The notes under the pieces: generated by a model | What the model saw: the letters and a program-made list of their open reading frames with translations, nothing else | Told to the model about the DNA's origin: nothing | The model's database searches: none | Position numbers and translations under genes: made by a program | In this document: piece after piece, positions 1 to 62,961 of the stretch | Layout of the letters: the number at the start of each line of letters is the position of its first letter | Numbering within the stretch: the first letter of the stretch is position 1 | Source of the DNA: a virus | Taxonomy: Duplodnaviria > Caudoviricetes | DNA: 62,961 nucleotides | Strand: one strand, 5' to 3' | Virus record (IMG/VR): IMGVR_UViG_3300048592_000259 | Span: 1 to 62,961 of that record

Positions 1-127
1 TCGCGGACGATCTGCGCGGCCTCGATCATCGCCGGCCGGATGTCGAGTTCGCCACCGAAGTCCACCTTCGCCCACGCGGGCGCGGCGGCGGTGAAGGCGT
101 GCAGGATGTTCTTGATGTCCGAGTCGT
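1..127. repeat. Terminal direct repeat identical to 62835-62961 (circular assembly overlap; unit genome ~62,834 bp)
   Basis: TCGCGGACGATCTGCGCGGC...GATGTCCGAGTCGT occurs identically at both ends. 127 bp matches a common assembler k-mer, and the repeat falls inside a continuous ORF. Confidence 0.95.
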
Positions 128-2396
128 TTTCCTCGGTCGCGAGGCTCACCAGGTCCGCGTTGCCGTACGCCTTCGCGAACAGCGCGGCGCGGTAGCGGTC
201 GACGAACTGCTTGGTGAATTTTCCCTCTTTCGTGACCAGGTTGTTGCGCTCGTCGGGCGGCACGGCGCGCAGGAACGACCGCAGCGCCGCGTCGTTGTCC
301 GGCGTGTCGATCGCACCGTTGTCCGAGACGTTCAGCCCCTCCGGATCCAGCGCGCGCGCGTCGTTCTGCGCTTGCTCGGGCGACGACAGGTTCAGGTGGC
401 TCTGCGGGTTCGACAGCGCGCCGATGTTCGGCCGCGCGTTCTCGGCGTCGTCGTAGACGCGCACCAGGATCGGGTTCTTGACCGCGGCAATCGCCTCGGG
501 CGGGATGCCGTGTTCCTTCGCGTTCTCGATCAGCGCTGCGCGGTACGTCTCCGCGCTCCCGCGCCGGTACGCCTCTTGGAGGCCCGCGACGCGGCCGTTG
601 TTGAGCGCGCGGATCGTGCCCGGCGCCGGCTTGGTGAAGTAGTCGCCGTTCACCGAGCCGTCGGCGTTGTTCGAGGCCAGCACGTCGTCGGCCTCGACGA
701 CCGCGTAGCGCACGCCGATCTTCGACCCGTCGCCCATGACGACGCGCGACGTGTGCCCGAAGTTCGTGTCCGGGATGGCCGAGGCGTTGGCGGCCACCGA
801 CACCATCGGCGCCGCCTCGTTCGGGGACTTGCCGGTGCCGAGACGATCGTAGTCGGGGTTGTTCGCGATCGCGTTCATCTGCGCGACCGACGCGGGCCGC
901 GAGCGGTCCCGCGGCTGCATCTGGAGGTCCGGCGGGCTCGTCACGTCGGCGCGCAGGGGCGCATTCGGCGGCGCGCCGGCAGGCTCGTACGGATCCGCCG
1001 CCGCGCCCGACTGGACGGCGGCGCCCGCGGCGCGCGCGACCGGGCCGGCATCGGGCTTCTCCCACGGCTTGGGCACCGAGAAGTCGCGCAGGGCCGAGTT
1101 GTCGGCGCGCGAGGCGGTCGCCATGCGGTCGAGCGCGGCGTTCGCGTCATCGTCGGACAGCGGGGGCAGGTCGGGCAGCGTGGAAGAGCCGCCCCCTTCC
1201 TCTCCCTGGGCGGCGGACGCGGGGCTCTTCTCCGCGGGGGCGACAGGCGCGGCGCCCGTCGCCGGCGCGGGCTCGCCGCGCAGCGCCGCGAGGCGGGCGT
1301 CCTCGGCCGCGCGCGCCGCGTATACCTCGTCGGCGTTCCGGTCGGCGTCCAGGCCCGGCGTCGGGTCGGGCGTGCCTTGGGGCGGCGGCACGATCGGCGG
1401 GCGCGTGACCGTCTCGGGCGACGGCAGGAGCCCGGTCGGGGCCGCGGCCGGCGCGGGGACCGCCTCGGGCTGGCGCCGCAGCCGTTCGATGCCGTGGCCG
1501 ATGCTGCCCGCGACGCCGCCGCCGAGTCCGCCGAGGATGCCCGCGTTCAGGATGTCCGACACGCCCTCGGGCGAGAAGGTCTTGATCGACGGGTCGACGT
1601 GTTCGACCGCCTTGCGCTCCAGGACGGTCTGCGCGCCTTCGGTCGTCGCCTCGGCGCCCACCTGCTTCGCGATGTCGACGAGCGCGCCGCCGCGCGGCTT
1701 CGCCTTCCCGACGACCTTCCCGATCAGCCGGGCCTCGGGCAGCACGTCGAGCAGGCCCGCCGGCACGCCGTAGCCGATCGCCGCGAGCGGGTCGGTCTTC
1801 CCGGTCTGCTCGTAGGTGTCGCCCTGGATCAGGCCCGCCTCGGTGCCGATCGACGTGGCGCCCGCGCCCGCGATCGCGCCGCGCTGGACCGCCTTGCCGG
1901 CGACCTTCGCGCCCGCCACCCCCGCCGCCTCGCGCGCCGCCTCCATGCCCGCGCCGCGCGCGATCGCCTGCCCGCCGGCCGCGCGCGCAGCTGCGGCGAC
2001 CGCGCCGCGGCCCGCGAGGTTCGCCGCGAAGCCGCCGACGCCGCCGCCCAGCGCCGACGTGACGGCGAACGGGGCGAGCTCGCCCAGGCCCCCGGCGACG
2101 TACTTCGCGGCGTCACCGACCGAGGCGATGTCCTCGAAGCGCGAGACGGCGCCCGCGTCCTTCTCGGCCGCGGCGCTCGCGCGCAGCGCGCCCTGCCGGC
2201 CGTAGTCCTTGAGCCCGTCGATGCCCGTCAGGTCGCCCGCGATCGACGTGAGGCCGTAGACCGCGCCCTTCGTCGCCTCGATGCCGCGCTTGACGCCCTT
2301 CTTGAACTCGCCGCCGAGGGTCGGGGGCTCGAAGCCGGACGTGAGCGGATCGAAGAACTCGGGCTGCTTCGCGAGCGGGTCGACGAACTCGGCCAT
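1..2396 (-). CDS. N-terminal part of giant DarB-like polyvalent virion protein, including a ddrB-like ParB domain; continues across the junction into 62834..51746
   Basis: ATG at 2396 after AGGAG, reading MAEFVDPLAKQPEFFDPL...; no in-frame stop seen to base 1. Position 65 equals 62899, in frame with the 3717-aa ORF. Motifs QPRDRSR, YAVVEADD, LNNGRVAGLQEAY and RAALFAKAYG fit ddrB-ParB. Confidence 0.88.
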   Translation of the reverse strand, partial: MAEFVDPLAKQPEFFDPLTSGFEPPTLGGEFKKGVKRGIEATKGAVYGLTSIAGDLTGIDGLKDYGRQGALRASAAAEKDAGAVSRFEDIASVGDAAKYVAGGLGELAPFAVTSALGGGVGGFAANLAGRGAVAAAARAAGGQAIARGAGMEAAREAAGVAGAKVAGKAVQRGAIAGAGATSIGTEAGLIQGDTYEQTGKTDPLAAIGYGVPAGLLDVLPEARLIGKVVGKAKPRGGALVDIAKQVGAEATTEGAQTVLERKAVEHVDPSIKTFSPEGVSDILNAGILGGLGGGVAGSIGHGIERLRRQPEAVPAPAAAPTGLLPSPETVTRPPIVPPPQGTPDPTPGLDADRNADEVYAARAAEDARLAALRGEPAPATGAAPVAPAEKSPASAAQGEEGGGSSTLPDLPPLSDDDANAALDRMATASRADNSALRDFSVPKPWEKPDAGPVARAAGAAVQSGAAADPYEPAGAPPNAPLRADVTSPPDLQMQPRDRSRPASVAQMNAIANNPDYDRLGTGKSPNEAAPMVSVAANASAIPDTNFGHTSRVVMGDGSKIGVRYAVVEADDVLASNNADGSVNGDYFTKPAPGTIRALNNGRVAGLQEAYRRGSAETYRAALIENAKEHGIPPEAIAAVKNPILVRVYDDAENARPNIGALSNPQSHLNLSSPEQAQNDARALDPEGLNVSDNGAIDTPDNDAALRSFLRAVPPDERNNLVTKEGKFTKQFVDRYRAALFAKAYGNADLVSLATEENDSDIKNILHAFTAAAPAWAKVDFGGELDIRPAMIEAAQIVR

Positions 2397-46563: not shown

Positions 46564-46589
46564 TCCGATTCACCTGGGGAGGTCGGGCC

Positions 46590-47817: not shown

Positions 47818-47821
47818 CGAC

Positions 47822-50450: not shown

Positions 50451-50452
50451 CC

Positions 50453-50671: not shown

Positions 50672-51149
50672 ACAAGAAGTAACGATCCCCTGGTGCCCGT
50701 TCTGCGCGGGCAAGCCGGAGGTCCTGAAGCTCCCCGGCGCGCGCGCCGTGTGCTGTACGTCGTGCGGCGCGCTCGGGCCGGCGGCGCACGAGAGCGACTT
50801 CCCCGGCCGGACCGAAGCGGAGGCCCTGAACCTGTGGAAGAAGCGCGGCGGCGTCGGCAACACGCGCATCGCCGCGGTGCAGGCCGGCGTCACGCCCGAC
50901 ACCTGCATCGTCGCCGAGAACTTGCAGAAGGCGATCGAGAAGGTCATGGCGAACGAGTACGGCAACGTCGACGTGTCGGTGCTGCTGCTTCTCGACACGA
51001 AGACGAAGCGGCTCGGCATCATCAAGCACCGCCTCGACGACCTGGGCTTCCAGCAGGTCCTTCAGGCGATCCTGTCGGGGCTGGTCGGGCCCGGCGGGCC
51101 ACTCGCGCCGCAGCGGCAGCACGGCGGGCTCATCATCCCAGGGAGGTAG
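50664..51149 (+). CDS. Lar-family restriction-alleviation Zn-ribbon protein with C-terminal extension, 161 aa
   Basis: SD AAGGAG; CPFCAG...CTSCGALGP...EALNLWKKR. Confidence 0.7.
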   Translation: MAEQEVTIPWCPFCAGKPEVLKLPGARAVCCTSCGALGPAAHESDFPGRTEAEALNLWKKRGGVGNTRIAAVQAGVTPDTCIVAENLQKAIEKVMANEYGNVDVSVLLLLDTKTKRLGIIKHRLDDLGFQQVLQAILSGLVGPGGPLAPQRQHGGLIIPGR

Positions 51150-51151
51150 TG

Positions 51152-51385
51152 ATGGCGCGTGTTCGAGTACTGCGACGGGTCCTGGACGAGATTGCGGCCC
51201 AAACCGCCGACGCGGCGGACATCGACCCGTCGTCGTTCGGCTACGGCTACGCCGAGGTCGACGACGCGCCGCGCGTCCAGGTCGACGGCGCGCTCACCCT
51301 CTCCCAACTGCTCGTCGTGGCCGCTGGCCTCGCGCGCGTCGTGGAGATCCAGCAGCAGGACCAACCCCAGGAGAAGACGCCATGA
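51152..51385 (+). CDS. Hypothetical protein, 77 aa
   Basis: SD GGGAGG; ATGA overlap with the next gene. Confidence 0.6.
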   Translation: MARVRVLRRVLDEIAAQTADAADIDPSSFGYGYAEVDDAPRVQVDGALTLSQLLVVAAGLARVVEIQQQDQPQEKTP

Positions 51386-51633
51386 AGGTCGTGATAGGCA
51401 GGGTCGTGCACGTCTGCGCAGCAACCATCCACCCGCAACGCGCGGACGAACCGATGGCGGCGATCGTCACGGCGGTCCGCAGCGGCTTCGCCACCGACAC
51501 GGCGAACGGTGACGCCTACGTCGATGTCACCGTTTTCCCGCCCGGCGAGCCGCCGGTCCCGCTGTCGAACGTGTGCCTGTCGGAGTACCGGCGCTCGGGG
51601 CTTTCGGCCTACCCCCCTCAGCACGCAGGCTGA
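51382..51633 (+). CDS. Hypothetical protein, 83 aa
   Basis: SD AGGAG; IGRVVHV...AAIVTAV...VDVTVFPPG pattern. Confidence 0.65.
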   Translation: MKVVIGRVVHVCAATIHPQRADEPMAAIVTAVRSGFATDTANGDAYVDVTVFPPGEPPVPLSNVCLSEYRRSGLSAYPPQHAG

Positions 51634-51742
51634 CGATCGCCGCGGGGACGTAGAACACGCCCCACAGCGCGATCGCGACCCACCCGATCGGCGTCGCCAG
51701 CAGCCCGACGACGCCGATCGCGGTCAGCAGGTACCACCCCAC
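51527..51742 (-). CDS. Possible small membrane protein downstream of the giant gene, 71 aa
   Basis: GTG 3 nt after the giant gene's stop; hydrophobic hairpin WYLLTAIGVVGLLATPIGWVAIALWGVFYV; tail overlaps the convergent gene. Confidence 0.45.
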   Translation of the reverse strand: MGWYLLTAIGVVGLLATPIGWVAIALWGVFYVPAAIVSLRAEGGRPKAPSAGTPTGTRSTAGPAARRAGKR

Positions 51743-51745
51743 GAT

Positions 51746-54700
51746 CTACTGCGCCAGGCGTTCGCGCAGGTCGTTGCGCATGCCGGCGGGCGCCGCCTTC
51801 ACGAAGCGTTCGCTGCGCGTGGTCTGCATTTCCTTCACGCGGCGCGCGATGTCGCTCGGGCGAATCTGGATCTTCGCTTCGGGGTTCTTCTCGTTCCAGT
51901 CGCGCAGCTGCGCGAGCGCGTCGTTCACCTTCGCCTTGTCCTTCTCGAAGATGCCGGTCGCCCAGCGGTCGGCCACTTCGCCCTGCACCGCGCGCACCAG
52001 GTTCGCGGTCTGCTGGCCTTCGCTGATGATGCGCGACTCGGCGGCCACCTTCGACGGGTTGAACCCCGTGGCGCGGGCGATCGCGTCGGTCGTGTCGGTC
52101 GCGATGACGCGCCGGCCGCGGCTGTCGAGCGCGTAGCCGCCCTGGATCATGTCGACGGCCTTCGCCGCGTCCTGGAGCGCCTTCGGCGCGAACTGGCGCG
52201 CCGCGGCGCCGAACTCGCCCGACTGCGCGCTCGTGACGGCATCCGCGACGCTGCGCGCGAGCCCGCCGGCCGGCCCCAGCACGTCCACGATGTCGCGGCC
52301 CTTGTCGACGTTCGACTTCTTCGCGAGGCCCGTGCCGGGGATCAGGTTGCCCATCCCCATGCGGCCCTGCACGTCGAGCGGGAAGCCGGGCATCGTCGAC
52401 GCGCCGTGCAGCACGAACGCGCCCAGGTCCTTCCCGAGGGTCGAGACGATGAACGCGCGCTTCTGCTCCTTCGTGTTCCAGTTGTACCCGAGGGACTGCG
52501 CGATCGTGTCGATCAGGTCGTCCAGGTCGTCCGAGAACGGGAGCCCGGAGATCCCGGACGCCAGCATCAGCAGGCCCAGCGCGTACGCGCGCTCGCGCGG
52601 GGGCAGGCGCTTCAGGAACTCCAGGTAGGCGATCGAGTACTGCTTGAACGTCATCACCGTCGCGCCGATCGGGCCGCGCGCCCAATTCGGCCGGTTCGCC
52701 TTGTTGTAGACGCCCTGCGTCTCCGCGATCGCGTTGACCGCGAAGTCGTAGGCGCTCTTGGCGCCGGCGTCGGCAAGCTGCTCGGCGTTCCAGTCCTTCG
52801 CCATCCCGAAGGCGGCGAGGAAGGTGGACCGGCGGTTGAACTGCTCGGCGACGGCGAACATCGACCCCCACACCTTGAGGCCCTTCCGGAGGTAGATGTT
52901 CGACCCGAGCCCGCGGATCGACTCGGCGTACAGCTGGTGGATTTCGTGCGGCGAGACGGTGCCCTCGCGCTCGGCGCGCGCGAGCGCCGCGGCCGTGGCG
53001 GGATCCGTCGGCCGCGTCACCGCCTCCTTCATGCCTCGCGCGAGCGCGCCCGCGGCCTTGGTCGCGCCGAACTGCGACAGGTAGGGCAGCGTCATCATGA
53101 ACGGCTGGGTCGTGTTCACGACCGCCGACGCGACCGACCCGCCGAGGTACTGGACGAACAGGAAGCCGCGCAGCGACGCCGCTTCCTCCTTCGGGTCCTG
53201 GAGGTAGGTGACGAGCTTGACCGCCTCGTCCTTCACGTCGCCCATGCGCTTCGGGATCGCCTCGACCGCATCGTTCATGTCGGCGTTGTTGAGGTTCCCC
53301 GACGCCGCGCGCGCGTTGCTCGTGATGAAGGCCGACAGCACGCGCTGGGCGTCCTGGTCGAAGCCGGCGATGCCCTGGCGTTGCAGCAGGCGCTTGAGCG
53401 CGCTGCGGTTGTTCAGGGCCATGCGGATGAACTCGTGGAACGCCTCGCGCTGGTCGGCGCCGGTCGCCTTCGCGAACAACTCCAGCGTGTCCGGCGTCAT
53501 CCCGCGGAACATCTTGTGGGCTTCCTTCGACAGCGTGCCCTGGGTGACTTGGGCGTTCGGGAACTCGGCGCGCAGCGACCGCGCCATTGCGTTCGCGTCC
53601 GCCTGGCGCTCGAACATGCCGAAGTAGACGCGGTTGTCGCCCTGCACCGCGTCGACGGTGTACTGGCCGAAGCGCATCAGCGGCGCGTAGCCCTCGCGGA
53701 TCAACTCGCGCACGCGGCCGTACCGGTTCAGGATCTCGCCGGCCGTCGCGGAAAGCTCCGCGCGCGCCGCCTCGGTCGTCGCGGCCTGCGACAGGCGGAT
53801 CAACTCGCCAGAGAGGGCCTGGGACGCGCCGTGGTGCGTCAGGAGCATGGCCTGGTCGATGAACGCCTTGTCGACCTTCCCGCGCGCCAGGCGAGCCATT
53901 TCCGACTGCGAGAGCGTTTCCAGCGACCGTTCGATCGCCGCGCGCGACTCCTGGTAGAGGCCGACCTGGCGCGGCGTCAGGTGGAAGCGATCGCGCAACT
54001 CGGCTTCGGTGTACTCGCGCTCGTCGATCAGCGTGCCGTGGAACAGCGGCACCGACACGGCGCGCACGTCCTTCGACGACGGGCCGATCTTGAGGACGCC
54101 CGAGAGCCCTTCGAGCTTCGGCAGGAGGTCCTTCGCCCGGTCGGCCGCGTCGTTCGCGATGCGCGACACGTCGTTGACGTACCGCTGCGCCTGGTCGTAG
54201 ACCCGCTTGAACTCGGGCACGACGGTCGCCTTGTGGAACTGCGTGCCGACGGTCTTGTGCCAGGGGTTGAAGACGCGCTGGGTCGTCAGGTGGTCCTGGA
54301 TGCGATCGGTGATCCTCGACACGGTGCCGCGGGACACCCCGAACGGCAGGCCGGGCTCGGCGACGATCCATTGCGGGTCAGCCTCGCCGACTTCCGGCTG
54401 GGCGGCATCGCCGGCCGTGTAGCGGCGCAGCGGTTCGGCCGCGACCGGCTTGGCCTCGTCGTCCGCTTCCTCCCCGCCCTCGGGCGCCGCGGCGGCGCCG
54501 TTGTCCTCCACCCCGATCCCGAGGGCCTTGTCGAGTTCGCGCTGGCGCTCCAGTAGCTCCTGGACCTTCGCGGCCTGCGGGTAGGGCTTCTCCGACTCGG
54601 CGCGCGCGACGGCCGCGTTGGCCGCGTTCTTCTCGGCCACGGCCGTCATCCGGGCCGCTTCCTCCGTCACGTCGCGCACCAGCCCTTCGAGGCGCTGGAT

Positions 54701-57700
54701 GTTGCCGTCGGCCGACTCGCCGGCCGTGGTCGCGTAGCTGTTCGCGCCCTGGAGCGCGAGGCGCACGGTCACATGGTCGCCGTAGCTCGCCTTCTCCTTC
54801 GTCACGGCGACCGGGAAGCCGCCCAGGTGCCCGACGACGATCGGCGGCTGGTTCATGCCGACTTCGCTGACGGCGCGCGCGAAGGCGCCCGCCGCCTCCA
54901 CGCGGTCGGCGTAGCGGCGATCGCCCACGGTCATCAGGAAGGCGTCCCCGCGCGTCGACACCACGCGGCCCGCGTCGAGCTTCGCGCGCTCGGCGTAGGC
55001 ACGCTGGTTCGTCGCGTACTGTTCGAGCTTCGTTGCCTCCAGCCGGAGCCGGTAGGCGTTCTCGTTGTGGCGGGCCTGGGACGACGTGAGGCGCGACAAC
55101 TCGCCGTCGACGTTGGCCTTTTCGAGGATGAGCGGGTTCCCCGAGGCGAACGCCTTCAACTCGGCGTAGGTCAGGGCGCGGTCGCTGACTTCCTCGATTT
55201 CGCGCACCGACGGATCCGCGCGCATCACCTGGTCGATGAAGGCCGACTTGCGCTCGACCGCCGACCACATGAAGGCGTCGAAGGACCCCTCGGTGATGTA
55301 GTGCCAGAGTTCGACTTCCTCGTTCTCGTTGCCCTGCCGCACCATGCGGCCGTTGCGCTGTTCAACGTCGGCGGGACGCCACGGCACGTCCAGATGGTGC
55401 AGGGCCTTCAGGAGGCGCTGGACGTTCGTGCCGGCGCCCATCTTGTCGGTCGAACCCAGCAGGATGCGCACGCGGCCGGCGCGCACGTCCTCGAACAGCC
55501 GATCCTTCTTGAGGTCGGTGTCCGCGTCCTGGATGAAGGCGACTTCGTTCGCCGGCACGCCCGCCTTCACGAGCTTGTCGCGGATGTCCTGGTAGACGCT
55601 GAACTTGCCCTTGTGGGGCGTCGAGAGGTCCGAGAAGATCAACTGCGACGACTTCGCCGCGCGCGTCTCGGTCCAGATCCGCAGGACGTTGGCGACCGCC
55701 TTGTTCACCTTCGACTCGGGGTCGTCCGCCGCCTTCGGGTCGACCAGGCGCATGTCGAGCGCGGCCTTGCGACCCTCGCTCGTGATCTTGAGCATGTTGT
55801 CCTGCCGCGGGTCGACCGTGCCGGTCTTGATCGCCTCGGCGCGCGCCACGAGATCCGCGACGAACGCTTCCATTTCGGCGGTCTTCGGCGAGGTCATCGA
55901 CTGCGGCTTGCCGCCGCGCAGCTTCGGCACCGGCAGCTTGAGCATGTCCGCCGTCTTCACGTCGGCGAACTCCCCGAACATCTGCGCGAGCTCGCCCACG
56001 TTGACGAACTTCGCGAACCGGGTCTTCGGAGCGTACCCGCCGCCGTCGGCGCGCATCTCGTACTGCGTGACCGCCTCGCCGAACTGAGCGGCCCAATTGT
56101 CGAATTGGTCGAGCCCCGCGGCCTGGAGGGACTTCATGCCCAGGTACCGCTGCATCGTGAACATTTCCGTCACGCTGTTCGCGATCGGGGTGCCGGTCAT
56201 GAAGACCACGGCGCCGCGGCCGTTCGCCTGGTCGTTCAACCACGCCGTCTTCAACAGCATGTCGGTCGACCGCTGCGAGTCCGCCGTGCCGATACCCGGC
56301 ATGCGGTCCATTTTCGTCTCGAAGCCGAGGTTCTTGAAGTAGTGGGCTTCGTCGACGAACAGGCGATCGACGCCGAGTTCCTCGAAGCGCACCACGTCGT
56401 CCTTCGCCGCCATCGCCAGTTGCCGGTCGAGGCGCGCCTTCAGGTCCTTCTTGCGCTTCTCCAGGCGCTTCTGGAGACGGCTGTTCTTCCCGCCGCCCTG
56501 GGTCTGAGCCTGTTCGAGGATGGCTTCCTCGACCTGCCGGATGCGCTCCTGGATGAAGTTGGCGACGTACTCGTCCGACATCGCGAGCTTCTGGAACGAC
56601 GAGTGCGTGATGACGATGCCGTCCCAATTCCCGGTCGCGATGCGCGAGGCGAGCTCCTTCCGCTTTTCGGCGACCAGATCCTCCTTGCGCGCCAGCAGCA
56701 GGTTCGCGTTCGGGTACAGCTGGAGCCATTCCCGCGAGTACTGTTCCAGCATGTGATTCGGAACGACGTGCATCGGCTTGCGCGCCGCGCCGATCCGCTT
56801 CAACTCCATGCTGCCGGCGATCGCCGTGAAGGTCTTGCCGGCGCCGACCGCGTGCGCGAGCAGGGTGTTCCCGCCCGTGACGATCCGCCACGCACCGTCC
56901 TTCACGTTCTGGCGCAGCTTGATGAGCGGGTTCGTGCCCGGCAGCGTCAGGTGCGACCCGTCGTACTTCCGCAGCTGGGTCGTGTTGAACTCGTCGTTGT
57001 AGAGGCGAGCGAGCGCGTCGCGCACGTCGTCGGTGCGCATCCACCACGCCTCGAACTCGGCGCGGATCGCGTCGATCTTCTCGGCCGCGGCCAGCGTCGC
57101 GGCGGTGTTGACCGTCGTGGTGCCGTCCGAATGGTGAATCAGGATCTTCGGCTTCTGCTGGTTCAGGGCCGACTCGAACAGCGACAGCGCGTGCAGTTCG
57201 GGCGTGCCCCATACCCCGCGCATCTGCGGCGTGTCCGTGTTCACCGAGCGCGGCGTGACGCGCCAGTCCGATGTGGTGGGCGAGAAGTGGATGTCGAAGG
57301 CGTTGCGCTGCGGGGTGCCGAACGTCTCCTGCGCGAAGCGCGCCAGCACGTCGGTCGGAATCCACCGCTGGCCCAGGCGGGCGCGGATGGCCGACGGCAC
57401 CAGGTCTTGCGGGATGACGGCGCGCAGCGCCTTGGCGTTCGCCTCGAAGGCCGGATCGGTCAGGGCGGCCGCCTCCGCTTCCCGGAGCTTCGCGCGCACG
57501 TTGCCCGACAGGTACGCCTCGGACTGCTGCCACGAACGTTCCACCGGGTCGAGGTAGATGCGCCCGTCGAGCCCGCCGATCAACTCGGCCTCGGAGAAGC
57601 CCGTCAGCCGGCTCATGTGCGCCAGGTCGACGCGCCCGAGCTCGTTCAGGGAGGCGGTCAGCGCGTCGATCGCGTTGTCGGCCGACGTGATCGGCACCGA

Positions 57701-60700
57701 CCGCTGGACCGTGCGCTGGGTGAACACGTCGGCCTTCGCCGCCGTCTTCTTCTCGGGGTTCCACTTCTCCAGGGCGAGCAGGAGCGGCGCGTCCGAGTCT
57801 TCGATGATGGTCGCGCGGTTCGCCTTCTCGTTCAGGTAGCCGTGCTTCTTGACGAAGGCGTCGTAGGCGTCGTTCAGGGCCGCGGCGGTGGCGTCGAAGC
57901 GCGCCTGGTCGTCCGTCTCGACCTGGGTGCGCAGGTGCGCGCGCGCGGCGTCGCGAATGGCGATCGCCGCCGTCACCTTCGCCGCGTCCAGGTGGCTCAT
58001 GGGCTGGAGCAGCCCGCGGCCCTTCTGGAAGACCTTGCCGTTCTTCACGACCAGCGCGCCCGGCTTGATGTCGTCCGGCGCCGGGATCGGCTCGTCGAAC
58101 ACCTTCGAGGTCGCGATCGGCTTCACCCCGTCGGCGGGGAGCTTGGCGATCGCGTCGCGGATGCTCGCCGGCAGGTCGCGGCCGTCCGACTTGAGCGCTG
58201 CGTCGCCGCGGCCGTACATCGTGCCCTCGCGCGTCATCCGCCCCATCATCATTTCGGGATGGGCGACGAAGTACTCGTTGACGCGCAGGTCGCCGTCCGC
58301 CGATTTGATCGTGTCCAGGTTCAGCCACTTCGCCTCGCCGGGCGCGGGATCCGCCTCGCGCTCGCGCTTGCGCAGGAAGATGATGTCCGTCGTGACTTCG
58401 GTGTTCGCGTTCGCCTTGAAGGCGTCGTTCGGCAGGCGGATCGCGCCCAGGAATTCGCCCTTGCGCGCGATCAGCGCGCGGGCCGCGCTGTTCATCTTGT
58501 CCATCGTGCCGTCGCTCGTGACGAACGCGACGACGCCGCCAGGGCGCACGCGGTCGAGCGCCTTGGCGAAGAAGTAGTCGTGGATGAACAGCTTGTGCTT
58601 GTTGTACTTCGGGTCGCTGACGGTGTAGTCGCCGAACGGGACGTTCGAGATTGCCACGTCGAAGAAGCCGTCCGGGAACTGCGCCTGCTCGAAGCCCTGC
58701 ACCCGCACGTCGGCGGTCTGGTACAGCTGCTTGGAGATCCGGCCGGACAGGCTGTCGAGTTCCACCCCGGCGAGCGTCGACGCGCTGCGCGCGGCGTCCG
58801 GCATCAGGCCGAAGAAGTGGCCGACGCCCATCGCGGGCTCCAGGACGCGACCGCCCTTGAAGCCCATGTGCGCGAGCGCGTCCCACATCGACGTGATGAT
58901 CTGCGGCGCGGTGTAGTGGGCGTTCGGCGTCGACCCGCGCGCGAGTTCGTATTCCTCCTTCGTCAGGAGGTCGAATAGCTCGCGGCGCTCCTTCGCCCAC
59001 TCGGGGGACTGGCCGCGTTCCATCGACATCGGGCCGTAGCCCGACCGGTTCGTCTCCTTCAGCCAGCCGTCGAAGTAGTCGTAGTGGCCGAGGTAGAAGG
59101 CGTTCTTCATGCCGCCCCACCCGACGTAGCGCGAAAGCGTCTCCTGCTCGGCCGGCGTCGCGGCGCGGCCCTCGGATTCGAGCGTCTTCAGGACGCGGAT
59201 CGCTTCGAGGTTGCCGGCGTACTTCTGCTTCAACCCGCCGGTCCCGATCGTCTCGGGCCGCGTGATGCGGAAATTTACGCCCGTGCGCGTGGGCGGCTTG
59301 TACGCGATGGGGCGTCGTACCCGTTCGCGTCCGCCTCCCTTGTCTCCGCGTCCTTGGTCAGCAGCAGGTCCGGAATCACCGCCGCTTCCGCCTCGACGAG
59401 AGCGGTCCCCGGATCCGCCCCCTTCGCGATCAGGCTGTCCATCATCGCGTCGACCGCGTTGAACGTTTCCTCGGCCTTCGCCGCCACCGTCGCGTTGAGC
59501 GTCCCGTCCGCCTGCATCTGCTCGAACGCTTCCGGGTCCGCCTCCTTGAGGCTTCGCCGCGCCATCGTTTCGTACTTCTTGGGTGCCACCTTGGCCTCCT
59601 TGCGAGAACAGGTCGTCGAACAGGTCCGCGATCGCGCCGGGCGACTCCTTCTTCGCGCGCGCGACGACGGCCTTACGCTCCGGAACCGGGTCGCCGAACA
59701 GGTCGAGCGTTTCGCGCGCGTGGTATTCGCGCGCCTCTTTGCGACCACCGAGCCGGAAGTCGTGGCGCGGGAAGATGCCGGCGGCCTGAATCGAACCCGT
59801 GATCGGGTAGGAATTCGGGTCCGCCGTCACGGGCGCATCGACGATGGCGTCGCGCAGGAATCCGTTGGACACGGCCACCGAGGCTACGCGCCCGAGATTG
59901 TTCGGAACGCCGACCGCGAAGATGCCGTTGCCGCTTCCGGACGCCCGCGCGAGGCGGGACAGCATCGCGCCGGTCCGCAGGTTCTCCTTGAATCGTTCGT
60001 GCGGGATTTCTGCGAGCAGGGTGATCTTGTTGTCGGCCCCCACGCCGATGAGCGCGATCATGCCCGGCTTCTGGATCTTCTTGCCGATCCGCGCTACGTC
60101 GTATTCGTTTTCGACGCGATCGTAGCCGAGATCCTTCGCCGGGGCGGGCGCGTTCGCCGCGAGGGTGCGGACTTCCGCCACGAACCTTTTCCGCTTCCGG
60201 TCAATCCGGATCAGCCCGAACTTGTTCGTGTCGAGGATGACGTGCCCGCCGTATAGCTTCGCGAGCGCCTTATTTCCGAGAATGTAGTCGGTCAGGTTGA
60301 CATCGGAGCTCGATGCCTCGGGGCGCCCGGACGGGTGGTTGTGCATCAGGTAGAACTTGTCCGCGTCGAGCGACTTCGCGATGTACTCCAGGCGCAGCAG
60401 GAACATCTTCGGCGAGCCGACGAACGCCGCGGTTACTGACGGCAGGCGCGAGGTCACCGCTTCCTCGTGGATGACCTTACCGCCCTTGGTGAAGACGTAG
60501 CGCATCGTCTCGTAGCGCGGGTCGCGGTAGACCTGTGCGACCGCCGCCAGGTCGGCGTAGCTCGTGACCGGCTTCCCGAGCAGCGTCGATTCCCCGTCGC
60601 GGATCATGTCGAGATTGATCGCCGCGGCGAGGACCGACACGCGGCCGGCCTGGGTGAGTTCGCGCATGGCGCCGTCGCGCGCGGCCTTCGCCTTCGCGTT

Positions 60701-62961
60701 CTCGTCGGCGCGCTTCGGCAGCGCGTCCACGGCCTTGAGCGCGGCCGTCTGCGCCGCCGCCACCAGGTCGTCGGTGCGCTTCGCCGTCTCGGCGCGCTGG
60801 GCCTTCGTCATGGACGCGCCGGGCTCGAACAGCGCCTTCTGGCCGGCCGCGGCGCCCACGTCGGCGTCGCGATCGCTGCCGGTCAGGGCGAAGCCCTTCG
60901 GGTCGGGCGCACGATCGCGCTTCGCCGCGTCGGCCTCGCGCTTGGCGGCGATCGCCGCGTCGACCTTCGCGGCCTGTTCCGTCTGCGCAACAAGCGAGAA
61001 ACCGCCGGTCGCCGCATTGTCGCTATCCCCTTGACTTGGGGGTACAATTGGGGTTGTGGACCTTCCCGATTCCTTCCCCTCCGGCGCCTCCTTCCTCGAC
61101 GTGGAAGGCGTGCCCGTGTCGCTCGGCGCGGGCGTCAAGGGGCTGTACTGCGCCGCTTGGGACGGCAAGGCGCCGCGACCCTTCCCGGTCGACTCGGCGC
61201 GGTCCAACGGCGCCCCGGTGAGCGAAGACGGCTTCCGCGCCTTGGTCGCCTCCTTCCACGCCGCGTCGTAGATCGCCTTCATCTTCGCGTTCAGGGTCGC
61301 GATGATGCGGGCCTCGAACGGTGTCGGGTCGCGCTTCTCCGCCTCCAGCTTGCGTTCCAGCTTCGCGCGGCGCTCGTACAGCGGGTGCGCGATTTTCTTG
61401 GCGCCGAGCATCGCCGGCAGGTTCACCTGCACTTCGGCGACGATGCCGCCGACGTTCACGTTGAACTTGGCGTCCCGGTAGCCGTCGACGGGATCCGCCG
61501 AATCGTCCAGGAGATTGCGCCGGCCGTTCGGCAGCACGTCGAACGCCGCGAGGATCTGTGCGACCGCCTCGCGCGCCTCGGCCGGCGTGTCGGCGACGAT
61601 CGTGCCGCGCAGCACGTCCTTGATCCTGGCCGCGTCGCCCGCGTAGTCGGCCTGGATCTTCTCGACGGCGCGCGCGGTGCCCTTGAGCGGCGCCAGCTTG
61701 GCCTTGCCGCCGATCGCCGCGGCGATCGTCTCCAGGGCGGCGTCGAAGTCGGGCTTCGCCGCCTCGGCCGCGGAGTAGATCATGGACAGCGTTTCCCGCG
61801 CGTCGGGCGGGAGCTTCTCGGCGTGCGCATCGCCCTTGAGCGGGTCGTCCAGGATGTCGACCTGCTTCTCGTCGAACACCTTGAACTCGACCGCCTCGGA
61901 CGTGTCGCCGTTGCTCGCGTGGATCGCGCCGTCGAAGCCCGCGGCCTTGAGCTTCGCGACTTCGGCGGGGTCGTCGAGGAACTGGTAGGCGTCGAAGTAG
62001 AGGTCGCCCAGCTTCGATGGGTCGCGCTTGAGAAGGTCCGCGACGTTCGAGTACTCGGCCGAGAAGCCCTCGTCCCAATTGTTCGTGCCTTCGATCGCGT
62101 GGGCGAACTTGAGCGCGATGCGCTTCGCCTCTGCCGCGCCGAGCTCGCGCTGGATCGCGTCGAGCCCGATGAACGGGTCGTCCGGCTGGTCGATGAACGG
62201 GTTGTCGAGCGTCAGGCGCGCGCGCAGGACGCGCGGGTCGACGGCGTACTTGTCTTGAATCCGGTCGTTCGGCTCGTCGGCGTAGGTCTGCGCGGCCTCG
62301 CGCTTGTCGACGAACGTGATGGACGGGTTGCGCGTCTGGACCTTGCGGCCGTCGCGCTTGCCGTGTTCGCCGCGGTAGACGACCGCGGGCAGCTTGGAAC
62401 GCTTCAGCCCTTGGGCGGGCTTGGCCGCTTGAGCGGCGGTTCCTTGCTGTTGATCCGGTTCCCCGCGGCGACGATCAGGTGCGTCAGGCTCTCGACCTGC
62501 GCCGTCCTCGCCTCGTTGCGGGGCTGCGCGGCTGGGGCCATTTTCGGCGGCGATCCGGGGTGCTTCGCTGCCATACGAGTCCTCCAGGAACCGGTTGACG
62601 CGGGCCGTCAGGTCCGCGGTCGTGGCCGGCGCGCGCCCGAACATATCGCCCGAGGTCGCCGCCTGCTTCTCATCGTACAGGAAGCGCGCGGCCTCGGAAA
62701 AGCCCGCCGCCAGGCGCTTCGGCGACCGCGTGTTCTGGAGCATCAGCCCCGTCATCGCGACCGTCATCGGGTCGCGGCCCAGGAGATCCGGCTGGCGCAG
62801 CACTTCCTCGCCCTTGAGCCCCCGCGACTTCGCCTCGCGGACGATCTGCGCGGCCTCGATCATCGCCGGCCGGATGTCGAGTTCGCCACCGAAGTCCACC
62901 TTCGCCCACGCGGGCGCGGCGGCGGTGAAGGCGTGCAGGATGTTCTTGATGTCCGAGTCGT
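51746..62961 (-). CDS. Main part of the giant DarB-like polyvalent protein (total ~4,494 aa): ART-like, RelA/SpoT, JAB/RadC, N6-adenine MTase, SNF2 helicase and PLxRFG domains
   Basis: ART-like VYRG...GFDG...EFKVFD (~62390-61860); RelA/SpoT KGTARAVEK, DVLRG, GYRD, EVQ, HPLYE (~61780-61370); JAB HNHPSG...SSSD (~60340); MTase LEPAMGVG and NVPF; helicase AVGAGKT, VDEAH, TGTP, QRNGRMVRQGN; PLMRFG at 53683-53666. Confidence 0.92.
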   Translation of the reverse strand, partial: DSDIKNILHAFTAAAPAWAKVDFGGELDIRPAMIEAAQIVREAKSRGLKGEEVLRQPDLLGRDPMTVAMTGLMLQNTRSPKRLAAGFSEAARFLYDEKQAATSGDMFGRAPATTADLTARVNRFLEDSYGSEAPRIAAENGPSRAAPQRGEDGAGREPDAPDRRRGEPDQQQGTAAQAAKPAQGLKRSKLPAVVYRGEHGKRDGRKVQTRNPSITFVDKREAAQTYADEPNDRIQDKYAVDPRVLRARLTLDNPFIDQPDDPFIGLDAIQRELGAAEAKRIALKFAHAIEGTNNWDEGFSAEYSNVADLLKRDPSKLGDLYFDAYQFLDDPAEVAKLKAAGFDGAIHASNGDTSEAVEFKVFDEKQVDILDDPLKGDAHAEKLPPDARETLSMIYSAAEAAKPDFDAALETIAAAIGGKAKLAPLKGTARAVEKIQADYAGDAARIKDVLRGTIVADTPAEAREAVAQILAAFDVLPNGRRNLLDDSADPVDGYRDAKFNVNVGGIVAEVQVNLPAMLGAKKIAHPLYERRAKLERKLEAEKRDPTPFEARIIATLNAKMKAIYDAAWKEATKARKPSSLTGAPLDRAESTGKGRGALPSQAAQYSPLTPAPSDTGTPSTSRKEAPEGKESGRSTTPIVPPSQGDSDNAATGGFSLVAQTEQAAKVDAAIAAKREADAAKRDRAPDPKGFALTGSDRDADVGAAAGQKALFEPGASMTKAQRAETAKRTDDLVAAAQTAALKAVDALPKRADENAKAKAARDGAMRELTQAGRVSVLAAAINLDMIRDGESTLLGKPVTSYADLAAVAQVYRDPRYETMRYVFTKGGKVIHEEAVTSRLPSVTAAFVGSPKMFLLRLEYIAKSLDADKFYLMHNHPSGRPEASSSDVNLTDYILGNKALAKLYGGHVILDTNKFGLIRIDRKRKRFVAEVRTLAANAPAPAKDLGYDRVENEYDVARIGKKIQKPGMIALIGVGADNKITLLAEIPHERFKENLRTGAMLSRLARASGSGNGIFAVGVPNNLGRVASVAVSNGFLRDAIVDAPVTADPNSYPITGSIQAAGIFPRHDFRLGGRKEAREYHARETLDLFGDPVPERKAVVARAKKESPGAIADLFDDLFSQGGQGGTQEVRNDGAAKPQGGGPGSVRADAGGRDAQRDGGGEGRGNVQRGRRDDGQPDREGGGSGDRSRRGGSGGDSGPAADQGRGDKGGGRERVRRPIAYKPPTRTGVNFRITRPETIGTGGLKQKYAGNLEAIRVLKTLESEGRAATPAEQETLSRYVGWGGMKNAFYLGHYDYFDGWLKETNRSGYGPMSMERGQSPEWAKERRELFDLLTKEEYELARGSTPNAHYTAPQIITSMWDALAHMGFKGGRVLEPAMGVGHFFGLMPDAARSASTLAGVELDSLSGRISKQLYQTADVRVQGFEQAQFPDGFFDVAISNVPFGDYTVSDPKYNKHKLFIHDYFFAKALDRVRPGGVVAFVTSDGTMDKMNSAARALIARKGEFLGAIRLPNDAFKANANTEVTTDIIFLRKREREADPAPGEAKWLNLDTIKSADGDLRVNEYFVAHPEMMMGRMTREGTMYGRGDAALKSDGRDLPASIRDAIAKLPADGVKPIATSKVFDEPIPAPDDIKPGALVVKNGKVFQKGRGLLQPMSHLDAAKVTAAIAIRDAARAHLRTQVETDDQARFDATAAALNDAYDAFVKKHGYLNEKANRATIIEDSDAPLLLALEKWNPEKKTAAKADVFTQRTVQRSVPITSADNAIDALTASLNELGRVDLAHMSRLTGFSEAELIGGLDGRIYLDPVERSWQQSEAYLSGNVRAKLREAEAAALTDPAFEANAKALRAVIPQDLVPSAIRARLGQRWIPTDVLARFAQETFGTPQRNAFDIHFSPTTSDWRVTPRSVNTDTPQMRGVWGTPELHALSLFESALNQQKPKILIHHSDGTTTVNTAATLAAAEKIDAIRAEFEAWWMRTDDVRDALARLYNDEFNTTQLRKYDGSHLTLPGTNPLIKLRQNVKDGAWRIVTGGNTLLAHAVGAGKTFTAIAGSMELKRIGAARKPMHVVPNHMLEQYSREWLQLYPNANLLLARKEDLVAEKRKELASRIATGNWDGIVITHSSFQKLAMSDEYVANFIQERIRQVEEAILEQAQTQGGGKNSRLQKRLEKRKKDLKARLDRQLAMAAKDDVVRFEELGVDRLFVDEAHYFKNLGFETKMDRMPGIGTADSQRSTDMLLKTAWLNDQANGRGAVVFMTGTPIANSVTEMFTMQRYLGMKSLQAAGLDQFDNWAAQFGEAVTQYEMRADGGGYAPKTRFAKFVNVGELAQMFGEFADVKTADMLKLPVPKLRGGKPQSMTSPKTAEMEAFVADLVARAEAIKTGTVDPRQDNMLKITSEGRKAALDMRLVDPKAADDPESKVNKAVANVLRIWTETRAAKSSQLIFSDLSTPHKGKFSVYQDIRDKLVKAGVPANEVAFIQDADTDLKKDRLFEDVRAGRVRILLGSTDKMGAGTNVQRLLKALHHLDVPWRPADVEQRNGRMVRQGNENEEVELWHYITEGSFDAFMWSAVERKSAFIDQVMRADPSVREIEEVSDRALTYAELKAFASGNPLILEKANVDGELSRLTSSQARHNENAYRLRLEATKLEQYATNQRAYAERAKLDAGRVVSTRGDAFLMTVGDRRYADRVEAAGAFARAVSEVGMNQPPIVVGHLGGFPVAVTKEKASYGDHVTVRLALQGANSYATTAGESADGNIQRLEGLVRDVTEEAARMTAVAEKNAANAAVARAESEKPYPQAAKVQELLERQRELDKALGIGVEDNGAAAAPEGGEEADDEAKPVAAEPLRRYTAGDAAQPEVGEADPQWIVAEPGLPFGVSRGTVSRITDRIQDHLTTQRVFNPWHKTVGTQFHKATVVPEFKRVYDQAQRYVNDVSRIANDAADRAKDLLPKLEGLSGVLKIGPSSKDVRAVSVPLFHGTLIDEREYTEAELRDRFHLTPRQVGLYQESRAAIERSLETLSQSEMARLARGKVDKAFIDQAMLLTHHGASQALSGELIRLSQAATTEAARAELSATAGEILNRYGRVRELIREGYAPLMRFGQYTVDAVQGDNRVYFGMFERQADANAMARSLRAEFPNAQVTQGTLSKEAHKMFRGMTPDTLELFAKATGADQREAFHEFIRMALNNRSALKRLLQRQGIAGFDQDAQRVLSAFITSNARAASGNLNNADMNDAVEAIPKRMGDVKDEAVKLVTYLQDPKEEAASLRGFLFVQYLGGSVASAVVNTTQPFMMTLPYLSQFGATKAAGALARGMKEAVTRPTDPATAAALARAEREGTVSPHEIHQLYAESIRGLGSNIYLRKGLKVWGSMFAVAEQFNRRSTFLAAFGMAKDWNAEQLADAGAKSAYDFAVNAIAETQGVYNKANRPNWARGPIGATVMTFKQYSIAYLEFLKRLPPRERAYALGLLMLASGISGLPFSDDLDDLIDTIAQSLGYNWNTKEQKRAFIVSTLGKDLGAFVLHGASTMPGFPLDVQGRMGMGNLIPGTGLAKKSNVDKGRDIVDVLGPAGGLARSVADAVTSAQSGEFGAAARQFAPKALQDAAKAVDMIQGGYALDSRGRRVIATDTTDAIARATGFNPSKVAAESRIISEGQQTANLVRAVQGEVADRWATGIFEKDKAKVNDALAQLRDWNEKNPEAKIQIRPSDIARRVKEMQTTRSERFVKAAPAGMRNDLRERLAQ
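59275..59589 (-). CDS. Overprinted TnpV-like protein, 104 aa, nested out of frame in the giant gene
   Basis: SD AAGGAGG 5 nt before GTG; high GC3 in this frame while the host frame is a Gly/Arg linker; KYETMARRSLKEADP...GTL...EAEAAVIPDLL. Confidence 0.65.
   Translation of the reverse strand: MAPKKYETMARRSLKEADPEAFEQMQADGTLNATVAAKAEETFNAVDAMMDSLIAKGADPGTALVEAEAAVIPDLLLTKDAETREADANGYDAPSRTSRPRARA
61043..61055 (+). promoter_or_regulatory. Putative antisense promoter (-10 TACAAT) for a leaderless nested ORF
   Basis: TACAAT-TGGGGTT-GTG parallels the early promoter TACGAT-GGGGTT-GTG at 28400; no canonical -35 at 17 bp. Confidence 0.5.
61056..61271 (+). CDS. Antisense nested 71-aa protein directly behind the RelA/SpoT domain (candidate antitoxin/immunity protein)
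   Basis: Globular-looking sequence with an upstream -10 box, opposite a Ser/Pro/Thr low-complexity linker of the host protein. Confidence 0.55.
   Translation: MDLPDSFPSGASFLDVEGVPVSLGAGVKGLYCAAWDGKAPRPFPVDSARSNGAPVSEDGFRALVASFHAAS
62404..62574 (-). CDS. Overprinted 56-aa basic protein nested out of frame in the giant gene, not in the ORF track
   Basis: SD GGAGG 6 nt before ATG; MAAKHPGSPPKMAPAAQPRNEARTAQVESLTHLIVAAGNRINSKEPPLKRPSPPKG; GC3 bias shifts to this frame. Confidence 0.55.
   Translation of the reverse strand: MAAKHPGSPPKMAPAAQPRNEARTAQVESLTHLIVAAGNRINSKEPPLKRPSPPKG
62835..62961. repeat. Terminal direct repeat identical to 1-127
   Basis: Exact sequence match. Confidence 0.95.

What the first reader, a model, noticed from the sequence alone, without database searches (positions are those of the whole stretch)
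59275..62574. Genes within a gene: three small ORFs hidden in the inter-domain linkers of the giant polyvalent protein gene
Seen: each of three low-complexity linkers of the ~4,494-aa protein holds a second ORF with its own expression signal. They are 62574-62404 (same strand, SD GGAGG, between the ParB and ART domains), 61056-61271 (antisense, TACAAT box, after RelA/SpoT) and 59589-59275 (same strand, SD AAGGAGG, just before the MTase). Known: polyvalent proteins collect toxic or DNA-modifying domains and are injected with the genome, like P1 DarB. Inference: each enzymatic module may have been captured with its small partner gene (antitoxin, chaperone or regulator), which stays functional while the giant frame reads through it as a linker. 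That would be an effector-plus-partner architecture that standard gene callers miss.
Basis: partly seen in the sequence, partly recalled or inferred. Interest (0 to 1): 0.9.

Follow-up and report, generated by a model that had tools for sequence, protein, structure and literature searches.

The report
Small genes embedded in giant phage gene
Two of the three small reading frames hidden inside this phage's 4,494-residue injected-protein gene look like real genes read in a shifted frame, one of them conserved and unannotated in many cultured phages, while the third (antisense) one is a chance by-product of high G+C content.

Summary
The window is a complete phage genome whose DarB-like polyvalent protein gene (4,494 codons) wraps round the record's ends. 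All three ORFs exist where stated. ORF presence alone means nothing at about 69% G+C, but two same-strand ORFs stand out. At 62574-62404 and 59589-59275 the codon-position signature jumps from the giant frame to the +1 frame and back. Both starts carry the only two strong Shine-Dalgarno-plus-start combinations in the 13.5-kb gene.

ORF 59589-59275 encodes a 104-aa helical, distantly TnpV-like protein. A counterpart sits in the +1 frame directly upstream of the methyltransferase module in all 13 cultured phages examined. Twelve have an ATG preceded by a Shine-Dalgarno-like sequence; none is annotated. In close relatives the embedded frame is under purifying selection and the giant frame there evolves about neutrally, yet stays open more often than chance allows, so the stretch is probably dual-coding.

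ORF 62574-62404 has the same composition and signals but no homologues; positional analogues occur in nine cultured phages. It is probable, not shown. The antisense ORF 61056-61271 is a shadow ORF. No evidence supports an antitoxin role. Translation is untested.

The parts
51746..62961 (-). Giant DarB-like polyvalent protein gene, C-terminal 3,737 codons plus stop. It continues across the record's ends.
   Evidence: Open frame. Its methyltransferase region matches annotated 'DarB-like antirestriction' genes of Lessievirus, Gervaisevirus and Pavtokvirus phages. SNF2, ResIII and Helicase_C hits.
1..2396 (-). N-terminal part of the same gene, with ATG at 2396-2394. Bases 1-127 repeat 62835-62961 (terminal repeat). 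It holds the ddrB-ParB domain.
   Evidence: 127-nt repeat and 4,494-codon ORF after circularisation. PF18763 at 76 bits. 32% identity to P1 DdrB by tblastn, E 1e-28.
62404..62574 (-). Embedded ORF A, +1 frame, 56 codons, ATG start, TGA stop. Product P0003.
   Evidence: Codon-likelihood flip of up to 25 nats. GC by codon position 0.65/0.57/0.89 in this frame; the giant frame's GC3 is 0.57 here against 0.93 gene-wide. No homologues.
62581..62585 (-). GGAGG Shine-Dalgarno motif, 6 nt before the ATG of ORF A.
   Evidence: Read. One of only two SD-plus-start sites in the gene.
59275..59589 (-). Embedded ORF B, +1 frame, 104 codons, GTG start, TAA stop. Product P0002, a helical, distantly TnpV-like protein.
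   Evidence: Flip of up to 40 nats. GC 0.69/0.50/0.86 by position. Small-protein homologues P0005 (89% identity), P0006, P0009, P0012 and P0019. TnpV sub-threshold hits. AlphaFold2 pLDDT 78.9. Counterparts in 13 cultured phages.
59595..59601 (-). AAGGAGG Shine-Dalgarno motif, 5 nt before the GTG of ORF B.
   Evidence: No difference at these places among the 33 of 54 differences that one search lists for the 91%-identical wastewater relative; the other 21 were not shown.
59261..59275 (-). First conserved residues (N-F-R-I-T) of the methyltransferase module in the giant frame. The stop of ORF B overlaps the V-N codons.
   Evidence: N10, I13 and T14 invariant in alignment A2.
61019..61138 (-). 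Linker with no good coding signal in any of six frames. It reads like a former intergenic spacer now translated in the giant frame.
   Evidence: Mean codon log-likelihood -4.3 to -5.2 and GC3 at most 0.72 in all frames.
61056..61271 (+). Antisense ORF of 71 codons: a shadow ORF, not a gene.
   Evidence: Its third positions coincide with those of the giant frame, GC3 0.92 in both. 25 antisense ORFs of at least 71 codons in this gene. No promoter-like site. No Pfam hit.
60281..60373 (-). Core of the RadC-like JAB domain in the module upstream of ORF B.
   Evidence: PF04002 at 26.2 bits against a cut-off of 22.1, residues 147-177 of window:59603-60811.

Best explanation
The giant virion-protein gene is dual-coding at two inter-module linkers. 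At each, a small gene lies wholly inside the giant gene in the +1 frame, with its own Shine-Dalgarno sequence and start codon. It is presumably translated by internal initiation on the same late mRNA. Ribosomes that started at the giant gene's ATG read the same bases in frame 0 as a disordered Gly/Arg/Asp/Glu- or Ala/Pro/Gln-rich linker whose exact sequence does not matter.

ORF B (59589-59275) encodes a roughly 100-aa helical protein distantly like TnpV. It is an old, conserved companion of the DarB-type methyltransferase-helicase module. The most economical history is a small gene that once stood just upstream of that module and was read through when further modules were fused on. In a G+C-rich genome the frame one base back from a real gene rarely has stops.

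ORF A (62574-62404) is a second such gene, attached to the ddrB-ParB module. The antisense ORF is chance.

Shown: the composition shift, the signals, conservation, selection asymmetry in relatives, and the maintained open giant frame. Inferred: translation of the small ORFs, their origin, and any function. I guess that the ORF B product is an assembly, packaging or regulatory helper of the methyltransferase-helicase module.
For: 1. Composition. The giant frame is the best-scoring frame everywhere except at the two ORFs and one spacer. In all 10 embedded ORFs examined (A and B in the window, JC1, Bcep22, DC1 and Gervaise), GC by codon position in the embedded frame is 0.59-0.80 / 0.39-0.57 / 0.81-0.90. 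That matches the genes' normal 0.68 / 0.47 / 0.87-0.93. The giant frame's GC3 falls to 0.39-0.57 there.

2. Signals. The gene has only two strong SD-plus-ATG/GTG sites, and both are at the flips.

3. Conservation of ORF B. A +1 ORF of 105-117 codons sits at the flip and ends within about 15 codons of the methyltransferase start. An ATG preceded by a Shine-Dalgarno-like sequence was read in 10 of 10 Lessievirus, Gervaisevirus and Cimandefvirus phages, in Itty13 and in PEp14 (GAGG). In USP18 the flip and the +1 ORF are there, but the start was not settled.

4. Selection. In 9 of 9 within-genus pairs dN/dS is 0.16-0.53 in the embedded frame against 0.62-1.65 in the giant frame over the same bases. 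Three independent pairs pooled give 20/23/42 differences by embedded codon position, p 0.0066.

5. Deep divergence. Alignment z-scores against shuffles are higher in the embedded frame than in the giant frame:
- PEp14 with Itty13: 43.9 against 12.6.
- JC1 with Gervaise: 17.2 against 8.3.
- PEp14 with the window: 7.5 against 0.0.
- Gervaise with the window: 5.3 against 1.1.

6. Small-protein relatives with matching N-termini: P0005, P0006, P0009, P0012 and P0019.

7. Family signal. TnpV is the only or top Pfam hit for 6 of 8 family members tested, in the same register, E 5e-5 to 0.03.

8. Fold. AlphaFold2 gives a confident helical fold, pLDDT 78.9.

9. The giant frame is kept open. Given the embedded protein, the chance that it stays open is 0.61 (window), 0.10 (JC1), 0.20 (Bcep22), 0.17 (Gervaise) and 0.16 (Itty13). 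JC1 gp69 is found in virions by mass spectrometry (PMC9144972, passages read).

10. ORF A analogues. 9 of 9 cultured phages have an SD plus ATG and a +1 ORF of 48-62 codons. In 6 Lessievirus pairs dN/dS is 0-0.53 in the embedded frame against 1.3-2.7, or undefined with dS 0, in the giant frame.
Against: - No direct evidence of translation of either small ORF. The laid runs were contigs, which cannot show it.
- The window's own ORF A has no homologue, a low language-model recognition score and a low-complexity product.
- For ORF A analogues, position counts pooled over independent pairs are not significant (6/5/8, p 0.69). One pair, Gervaise with YL4 (4 differences), goes the other way.
- Openness of the +1 frame is expected anyway given the giant-frame residues, probability 0.58-1.0.
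- dN/dS in overlapping frames is confounded, and the pairs are not all independent. Across genera (JC1 with YL4, Bcep22 with Gervaise) both frames look saturated, with ratios of 0.8-1.6.
- TnpV matches are all below Pfam's cut-off of 27 bits. Two of 8 members (YL4, L008) gave no TnpV hit.
- The +1 ORFs of L007 and L008 at the same place are not detectably related to the family.
- The genomic context of the small-protein homologues could not be seen. They might themselves have been called inside giant genes.
Confidence: 0.72

Rival explanations
1. Fossil genes. The small ORFs are relics of once separate genes that were swallowed when modules fused. They are no longer expressed. The composition signal and start signals are leftovers, and the stretch now serves only as linker.
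For: Module shuffling is real. Relatives replace 60940-62402 or 60940-61847 with other sequence. The spacer at 61019-61138 looks like fused intergenic DNA. The window's ORF A has no homologues. Position counts for ORF A analogues are not significant.
Against: For ORF B the +1 periodicity, the Shine-Dalgarno-like sequence with its ATG or GTG, and the stop persist in lineages whose embedded proteins share only about 35% identity. Over that much divergence an unselected frame would lose them, and the giant frame's third positions would drift to about 0.9 GC. dN/dS is lower in the embedded frame. Embedded-frame similarity outlasts giant-frame similarity.
Confidence: 0.12
2. Programmed +1 frameshift. 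Some ribosomes translating the giant frame slip into the +1 frame near the SD-like sequence and stop at the embedded stop. This yields a truncated N-terminal protein with a TnpV-like tail rather than a free small protein.
For: The embedded frame is +1 in every case. From general knowledge, not tested here, SD-like sequences inside genes can stimulate frameshifting, as in prfB. The embedded frame is constrained, which fits any mode of translation.
Against: A start codon is kept where it was looked for: 10 of 10 ATG, ATG in Itty13 and PEp14, GTG in the window; in USP18 several candidate starts exist and none was settled. The distance from the Shine-Dalgarno-like sequence to the start, 5-9 nt, suits initiation. 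Small-protein homologues begin at the same residue. No in-frame stop or obvious slippery motif at the sites (read). Frame 0 is kept open downstream, which a terminating shift does not need.
Confidence: 0.07
3. A constraint at the nucleotide level, such as RNA structure, a packaging or regulatory site, or an internal ribosome landing site for the giant protein's own expression, shapes these stretches. The ORFs are incidental.
For: The low GC3 of the giant frame shows only that something other than frame 0 constrains the bases. The +1 frame would be open anyway.
Against: The constraint has exact three-base periodicity with the genome's normal codon-position profile. Substitutions favour embedded third positions. 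The embedded products form a protein family with conserved hydrophobic positions, a confident predicted fold and a TnpV likeness.
Confidence: 0.04
4. Assembly artefact or a compensated pair of frameshifts in this one metagenomic record.
For: The window is a metagenome-derived virus record.
Against: The same arrangement is present in independently sequenced cultured phages. Contigs of four public runs lie on 59079-59708 and 62402-62800 without gaps.
Confidence: 0.01

Closest known systems
Rz/Rz1 spanin genes of phage lambda, an embedded gene pair (recalled from general knowledge; not examined here)
   Same: A small gene lies wholly inside a larger gene in the +1 frame, with its own ribosome-binding site and start. 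Both frames are used.
   Different: Here the host gene is a 4,494-codon injected polyvalent protein. The embedded genes sit in disordered linkers between modules. There are two per gene. The products are unrelated to spanins. Translation is not yet shown.
TnpV, Pfam PF14198 (transposon-encoded protein of Tn4451-type elements; function unknown, as recalled)
   Same: The ORF B family matches the TnpV profile in one register, residues 5-57 against profile 24-76, in 6 of 8 members. Protein-atlas neighbours include clusters named TnpV at 0.87-0.88. Both are small helical proteins of mobile elements.
   Different: All scores, 14.8-23.6 bits, are below the family cut-off of 27. These are phage genes embedded in another gene. 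No transposon context.
Phage P1 Dar antirestriction system: DarB and DdrB with the small accessory proteins Hdf, DarA, DdrA and Ulx
   Same: The giant protein joins a DdrB-like ParB domain and a DarB-like methyltransferase-helicase. In P1, small separately encoded proteins are needed to load DarB into the head (recalled from Piya et al. 2017, not read). That is the kind of helper role I guess for the embedded proteins.
   Different: P1 Ulx, DdrA and Hdf show no similarity to the ORF B family. In P1 the genes are separate and not overlapping; ulx lies downstream of darB.
iddB inside ddrB of phage P1, an annotated internal ORF
   Same: It is a small ORF annotated inside the P1 homologue of this gene's ParB module.
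   Different: iddB is antisense and of unknown function. It is a precedent for annotation only. The antisense ORF in this window has no support.

Membership tests
Embedded out-of-frame overlapping gene | The ORF lies wholly inside another gene in a different frame. | tested here: met
   Both ORFs are in frame +1 of the giant ORF.
Embedded out-of-frame overlapping gene | It has its own translation start signal. | tested here: met
   GGAGG then 6 nt then ATG; AAGGAGG then 5 nt then GTG. These are the only two such sites in the gene. An ATG preceded by a Shine-Dalgarno-like sequence was read in 12 of the 13 cultured phages; USP18's start was not settled. This is sequence-level evidence only.
Embedded out-of-frame overlapping gene | Purifying selection acts on the embedded frame. 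| tested here: met
   ORF B counterparts: dN/dS 0.16-0.53 against 0.62-1.65 in 9 of 9 within-genus pairs; position counts p 0.0066. ORF A analogues: the ratio points the same way in 6 Lessievirus pairs, but position counts are not significant. The window's own copies could not be tested fully; one search listed only 33 of 54 differences.
Embedded out-of-frame overlapping gene | The host frame is kept open and is translated. | tested here: met
   Chance of staying open is 0.10-0.33 in the Lessievirus phages, Gervaise and Itty13, and 0.61 in the window. JC1 gp69 was found in virions with 51 peptides (PMC9144972, Table 6 passage). Whether any peptide crosses the linker is unknown; supplements are closed.
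Embedded out-of-frame overlapping gene | The embedded product is detected. | not testable with these tools
   The laid runs were contigs. No proteomic data could be searched.
TnpV (PF14198) | Score at or above Pfam's gathering cut-off of 27 bits. | tested here: not met
   P0002 scores 14.9 bits; the best member, P0012, scores 23.6 bits. This is a consistent remote likeness, not membership.
DarB-like polyvalent protein (the host gene) | Several enzymatic modules in one polypeptide, including an N6-methyltransferase and an SNF2-type helicase. | tested here: met
   ddrB-ParB and RadC-JAB score above their cut-offs; SNF2, ResIII and Helicase_C score near theirs. The methyltransferase region is 37-49% identical to annotated DarB-like proteins. 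ART is weak and RelA/SpoT is unconfirmed.
   No family match to any antitoxin; the PADLOC library was not searched.

The most novel reading that the evidence does not exclude
Giant DarB-like injected proteins of a wide group of podophages (Lessievirus, Gervaisevirus, Cimandefvirus, Ittyvirus, Pavtokvirus and uncultured relatives) carry a conserved set of hidden, out-of-frame embedded genes in their inter-module linkers. The small products, among them a TnpV-like protein tied to the methyltransferase-helicase module, are required partners of the giant protein, for example for folding, head packaging or keeping an enzymatic module silent in the producing cell. The linkers are then not spacers but dual-coding cassettes, and module shuffling moves enzyme and helper together.
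Probability: 0.35. Interest if true: 0.85.

Novelty: new variant of a known kind. Interest (0 to 1): 0.72.

Why it matters
If the embedded genes are expressed, every annotated genome of these phage groups lacks at least one or two real genes. These groups include phages studied for therapy against Burkholderia and Pseudomonas and for biocontrol of plant pathogens.

It would give the poorly understood giant antirestriction proteins a set of previously unseen partner proteins to test.

It would also show a route by which multi-module polyvalent genes grow in G+C-rich genomes: by reading through small neighbouring genes in the stop-poor frame without losing them. And it gives a simple recipe for finding more such genes, namely a codon-position composition flip together with a ribosome-binding site and start codon.

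Tried and rejected
- Afipia and metagenome loci L001, L002 and L004-L006 found with P0002 are the N-terminus of an amidase (family-profile E 0.001-0.1). I rejected them as composition matches.
- Long proteins P0007-P0018 that matched P0002 in several stretches are Ala-rich or repeat proteins by Pfam. They are not fused forms.
- tblastn of P0002, P0006 and P0012 against cultured phages or plasmids found nothing. The cultured counterparts were found only through position and a family profile.
- IMG/VR scans with P0002, P0006, P0012, the RadC module and the ParB module end found no relatives. A blastn of 62404-62961 against phages found nothing.
- Fold search of the P0002 model against the PDB gave no match better than E 3.7.
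- Complex prediction of P0002 with the first 520 residues of the methyltransferase module gave no verdict: score 0.42, but a control with an unrelated chain scored 0.72. It counts neither for nor against binding.
- P1 Ulx, DdrA and Hdf as relatives of the ORF B family: no similarity.
- The laid public runs are wastewater contigs. They show relatives and module swaps, not transcription. Parts without cover mean nothing.
- My first upstream control was misaligned (122 of 300 differences), and I discarded it.
- Literature. Searches found no report of embedded genes in DarB-like genes. The polyvalent-protein paper PMC5512222 holds none of the terms TnpV, overlapping, frameshift, linker or Bcep22 (term search only). 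In the JC1 paper PMC9144972 I read passages only. The Bcep22 founding paper is not held, and supplements are closed, so a mention there cannot be excluded.
Full report
**What the window is.** The window is a complete IMG/VR virus record of 62,961 nt with a 127-nt direct terminal repeat. G+C is about 69% in the part profiled, 45,000-62,499. After circularising, the minus-strand ORF that runs off the window's end joins the ORF at 2396-3.

The methyltransferase region matches genes annotated 'DarB-like antirestriction' in several phage groups: Burkholderia (Lessievirus), Ralstonia (Gervaisevirus, Cimandefvirus) and Erwinia (Pavtokvirus). It also matches Pseudomonas phage Itty13. Pfam results are as follows:
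- ddrB-ParB domain, 76 bits: confirmed.
- RadC-like JAB domain, 26.2 bits against a cut-off of 22.1: confirmed.
- SNF2, ResIII and Helicase_C: near-threshold hits.
- ART-PolyVal: weak, 16.5 bits against a cut-off of 31.2.

**The observation.** Openness is worthless as evidence here. The same gene holds off-frame ORFs of 1,252 and 1,401 codons and 25 antisense ORFs of at least 71 codons. Given the giant-frame residues, the +1 frame would be open over the two same-strand ORFs with probability 0.98-1.0.

**What sets two of them apart.**
- A per-frame GC3 plot and a codon-likelihood scan over the whole gene show that the giant frame scores best everywhere except three places.
  - 62578-62399: frame +1, margin up to 25 nats.
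  - 59623-59279: frame +1, margin up to 40 nats.
  - 61138-61019: a weak flip.
- The first two places are the same-strand ORFs, from start codon to stop codon.
- Inside them the embedded frame has the gene's normal G+C profile by codon position. It is 0.65/0.57/0.89 and 0.69/0.50/0.86, against 0.68/0.48/0.93 gene-wide. The giant frame's third-position G+C drops to 0.57 and 0.50.
- The gene has 35 strong Shine-Dalgarno motifs. Only two are followed by ATG or GTG at 4-9 nt, and they are these two starts.
- At 61138-61019 no frame codes well; it reads like a fused intergenic spacer.
- The antisense ORF shares its third positions with the giant frame (GC3 0.92 in both). It has no promoter-like site and no family hit. 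It is a shadow ORF.

**ORF B (59589-59275) is a conserved gene.**
- Its product P0002 has a 104-aa relative of 89% identity in a public assembly.
- An exhaustive search of 1.84 billion representatives found four more small proteins of 94-166 aa that align from the same N-terminus.
- Six of eight family members tested hit Pfam TnpV as their only or best match, in one register, at E 5e-5 to 0.03. All are below the cut-off. Atlas neighbours named TnpV agree, as a lead only.
- AlphaFold2 gives a confident helical fold, pLDDT 78.9. No PDB fold match was found.

**The same arrangement in cultured phages.** Thirteen cultured phages were examined: JC1, DC1, CSP3, Bcep22, BcepMigl, BcepIL02, YL4, Claudette, Cimandef, Gervaise, Itty13, PEp14 and USP18.
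- In all 13 a +1 ORF of 105-117 codons lies at a codon-bias flip and ends within about 15 codons of the methyltransferase module's first conserved residues. An ATG preceded by a Shine-Dalgarno-like sequence was read in 12; USP18 has several candidate starts, and I did not settle on one.
- Twelve of the 13 records annotate only the giant CDS. Itty13 annotates three ORFs on the opposite strand.
- The downstream flank is homologous in 21 of 21 pairs. The window's upstream module is unrelated to that of the cultured phages. The small gene therefore goes with the methyltransferase module.

**Selection.**
- In 9 of 9 within-genus pairs, dN/dS is 0.16-0.53 in the embedded frame and 0.62-1.65 in the giant frame over the same bases.
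- Three independent pairs pooled give 20/23/42 differences by embedded codon position, p 0.0066.
- Across genera both frames look saturated by this crude measure.
- Shuffle-normalised alignment scores stay significant in the embedded frame and not in the giant frame. Examples are PEp14 with the window at 7.5 against 0.0, and Gervaise with the window at 5.3 against 1.1.
- The giant frame is also kept. Given the embedded protein, it would stay open with probability 0.10-0.33 in the Lessievirus phages, Gervaise and Itty13.
- JC1's giant protein is in virions by mass spectrometry (PMC9144972, passages read).
- Together these results point to true dual coding.

**ORF A (62574-62404).** The composition and signal evidence is as strong as for ORF B. 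However, its product has no homologue and looks largely disordered.

In a wastewater relative the ART and RelA-like segment is replaced by other sequence. The joint falls at 62402, two bases after ORF A's stop. ORF A therefore travels with the ddrB-ParB module.

Nine of nine cultured phages have an analogous +1 ORF of 48-62 codons with SD and ATG at a flip about 2.5-2.9 kb into the gene, after a different upstream module. There the dN/dS asymmetry points the same way in six non-independent Lessievirus pairs. The position counts are not significant (p 0.69), and one four-difference pair goes the other way. I rate ORF A as probable.

**Mechanism and function.**
- The likeliest mechanism is internal initiation on the late mRNA in the +1 frame, while full-length translation reads the same bases as linker.
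- A +1 frameshift product, fossil genes and an RNA-level constraint are the rivals. Conserved start codons, N-terminally collinear small homologues, persistent three-base periodicity over deep divergence, and the selection asymmetry argue against them.
- Function is unknown. I guess a helper of the methyltransferase-helicase module. P1's small Dar helper proteins are not related, and the complex prediction gave no verdict.

**Novelty.** Embedded +1 genes are known in phages; Rz1 in Rz is the example I recall. Embedded genes in DarB-like polyvalent genes did not turn up in my searches. The Bcep22 founding paper and all supplements could not be read.

Noticed in passing
L010 (Pseudomonas phage Itty13, MW460249.1 1552-11899): The record annotates three CDS (978, 1,153 and about 1,098 aa) on one strand. 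The opposite strand holds a single frame open over the whole 10.3-kb locus that matches the DarB-like gene. The annotated CDS look like shadow ORFs, that is, a strand misannotation.
   Followed up: partly
window 60940, 61847 and 62402: Wastewater relatives are colinear on both sides but replace 60940-62402 (1,461 nt) by 1,005 other bases, or 60940-61847 by 984 other bases. This is module swapping inside the giant gene with shared breakpoints.
   Followed up: partly
window 61019-61138: A linker of lower G+C with no coding signal in any frame. It looks like a fused former intergenic spacer that the giant frame reads through.
   Followed up: partly
L008 5720-6019 and L007 5795-6055: Two distant IMG/VR relatives (60% and 44% G+C) also have a +1 ORF of 99 and 86 codons just upstream of the methyltransferase module, over a Gly/Arg/Glu-rich giant-frame linker. 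They are not detectably related to the TnpV-like family. In L007 the +1 frame would be open by chance with probability only 0.013. L008 has three further weak +1 flips, at 2116-2280, 3076-3165 and 4651-4800.
   Followed up: partly
L020 3989-4387 (phage P1, NC_005856.1 26577-26975): P1's ddrB, the homologue of this gene's ParB module, carries an annotated antisense internal ORF, iddB, of unknown function.
   Followed up: no
window 1-127 and 62835-62961: A 127-nt direct terminal repeat. The record is a circularly closed assembly, and the giant gene spans the junction.
   Followed up: yes
L021 10081-10215 and L023 10351-10485 (Bcep22 and DC1 giant genes): A weak third frame flip, 4-8 nats, late in the gene, with no start preceded by a strong Shine-Dalgarno motif (in Bcep22 only a weak AGGGG before GTG/TTG). 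Probably a composition effect.
   Followed up: no
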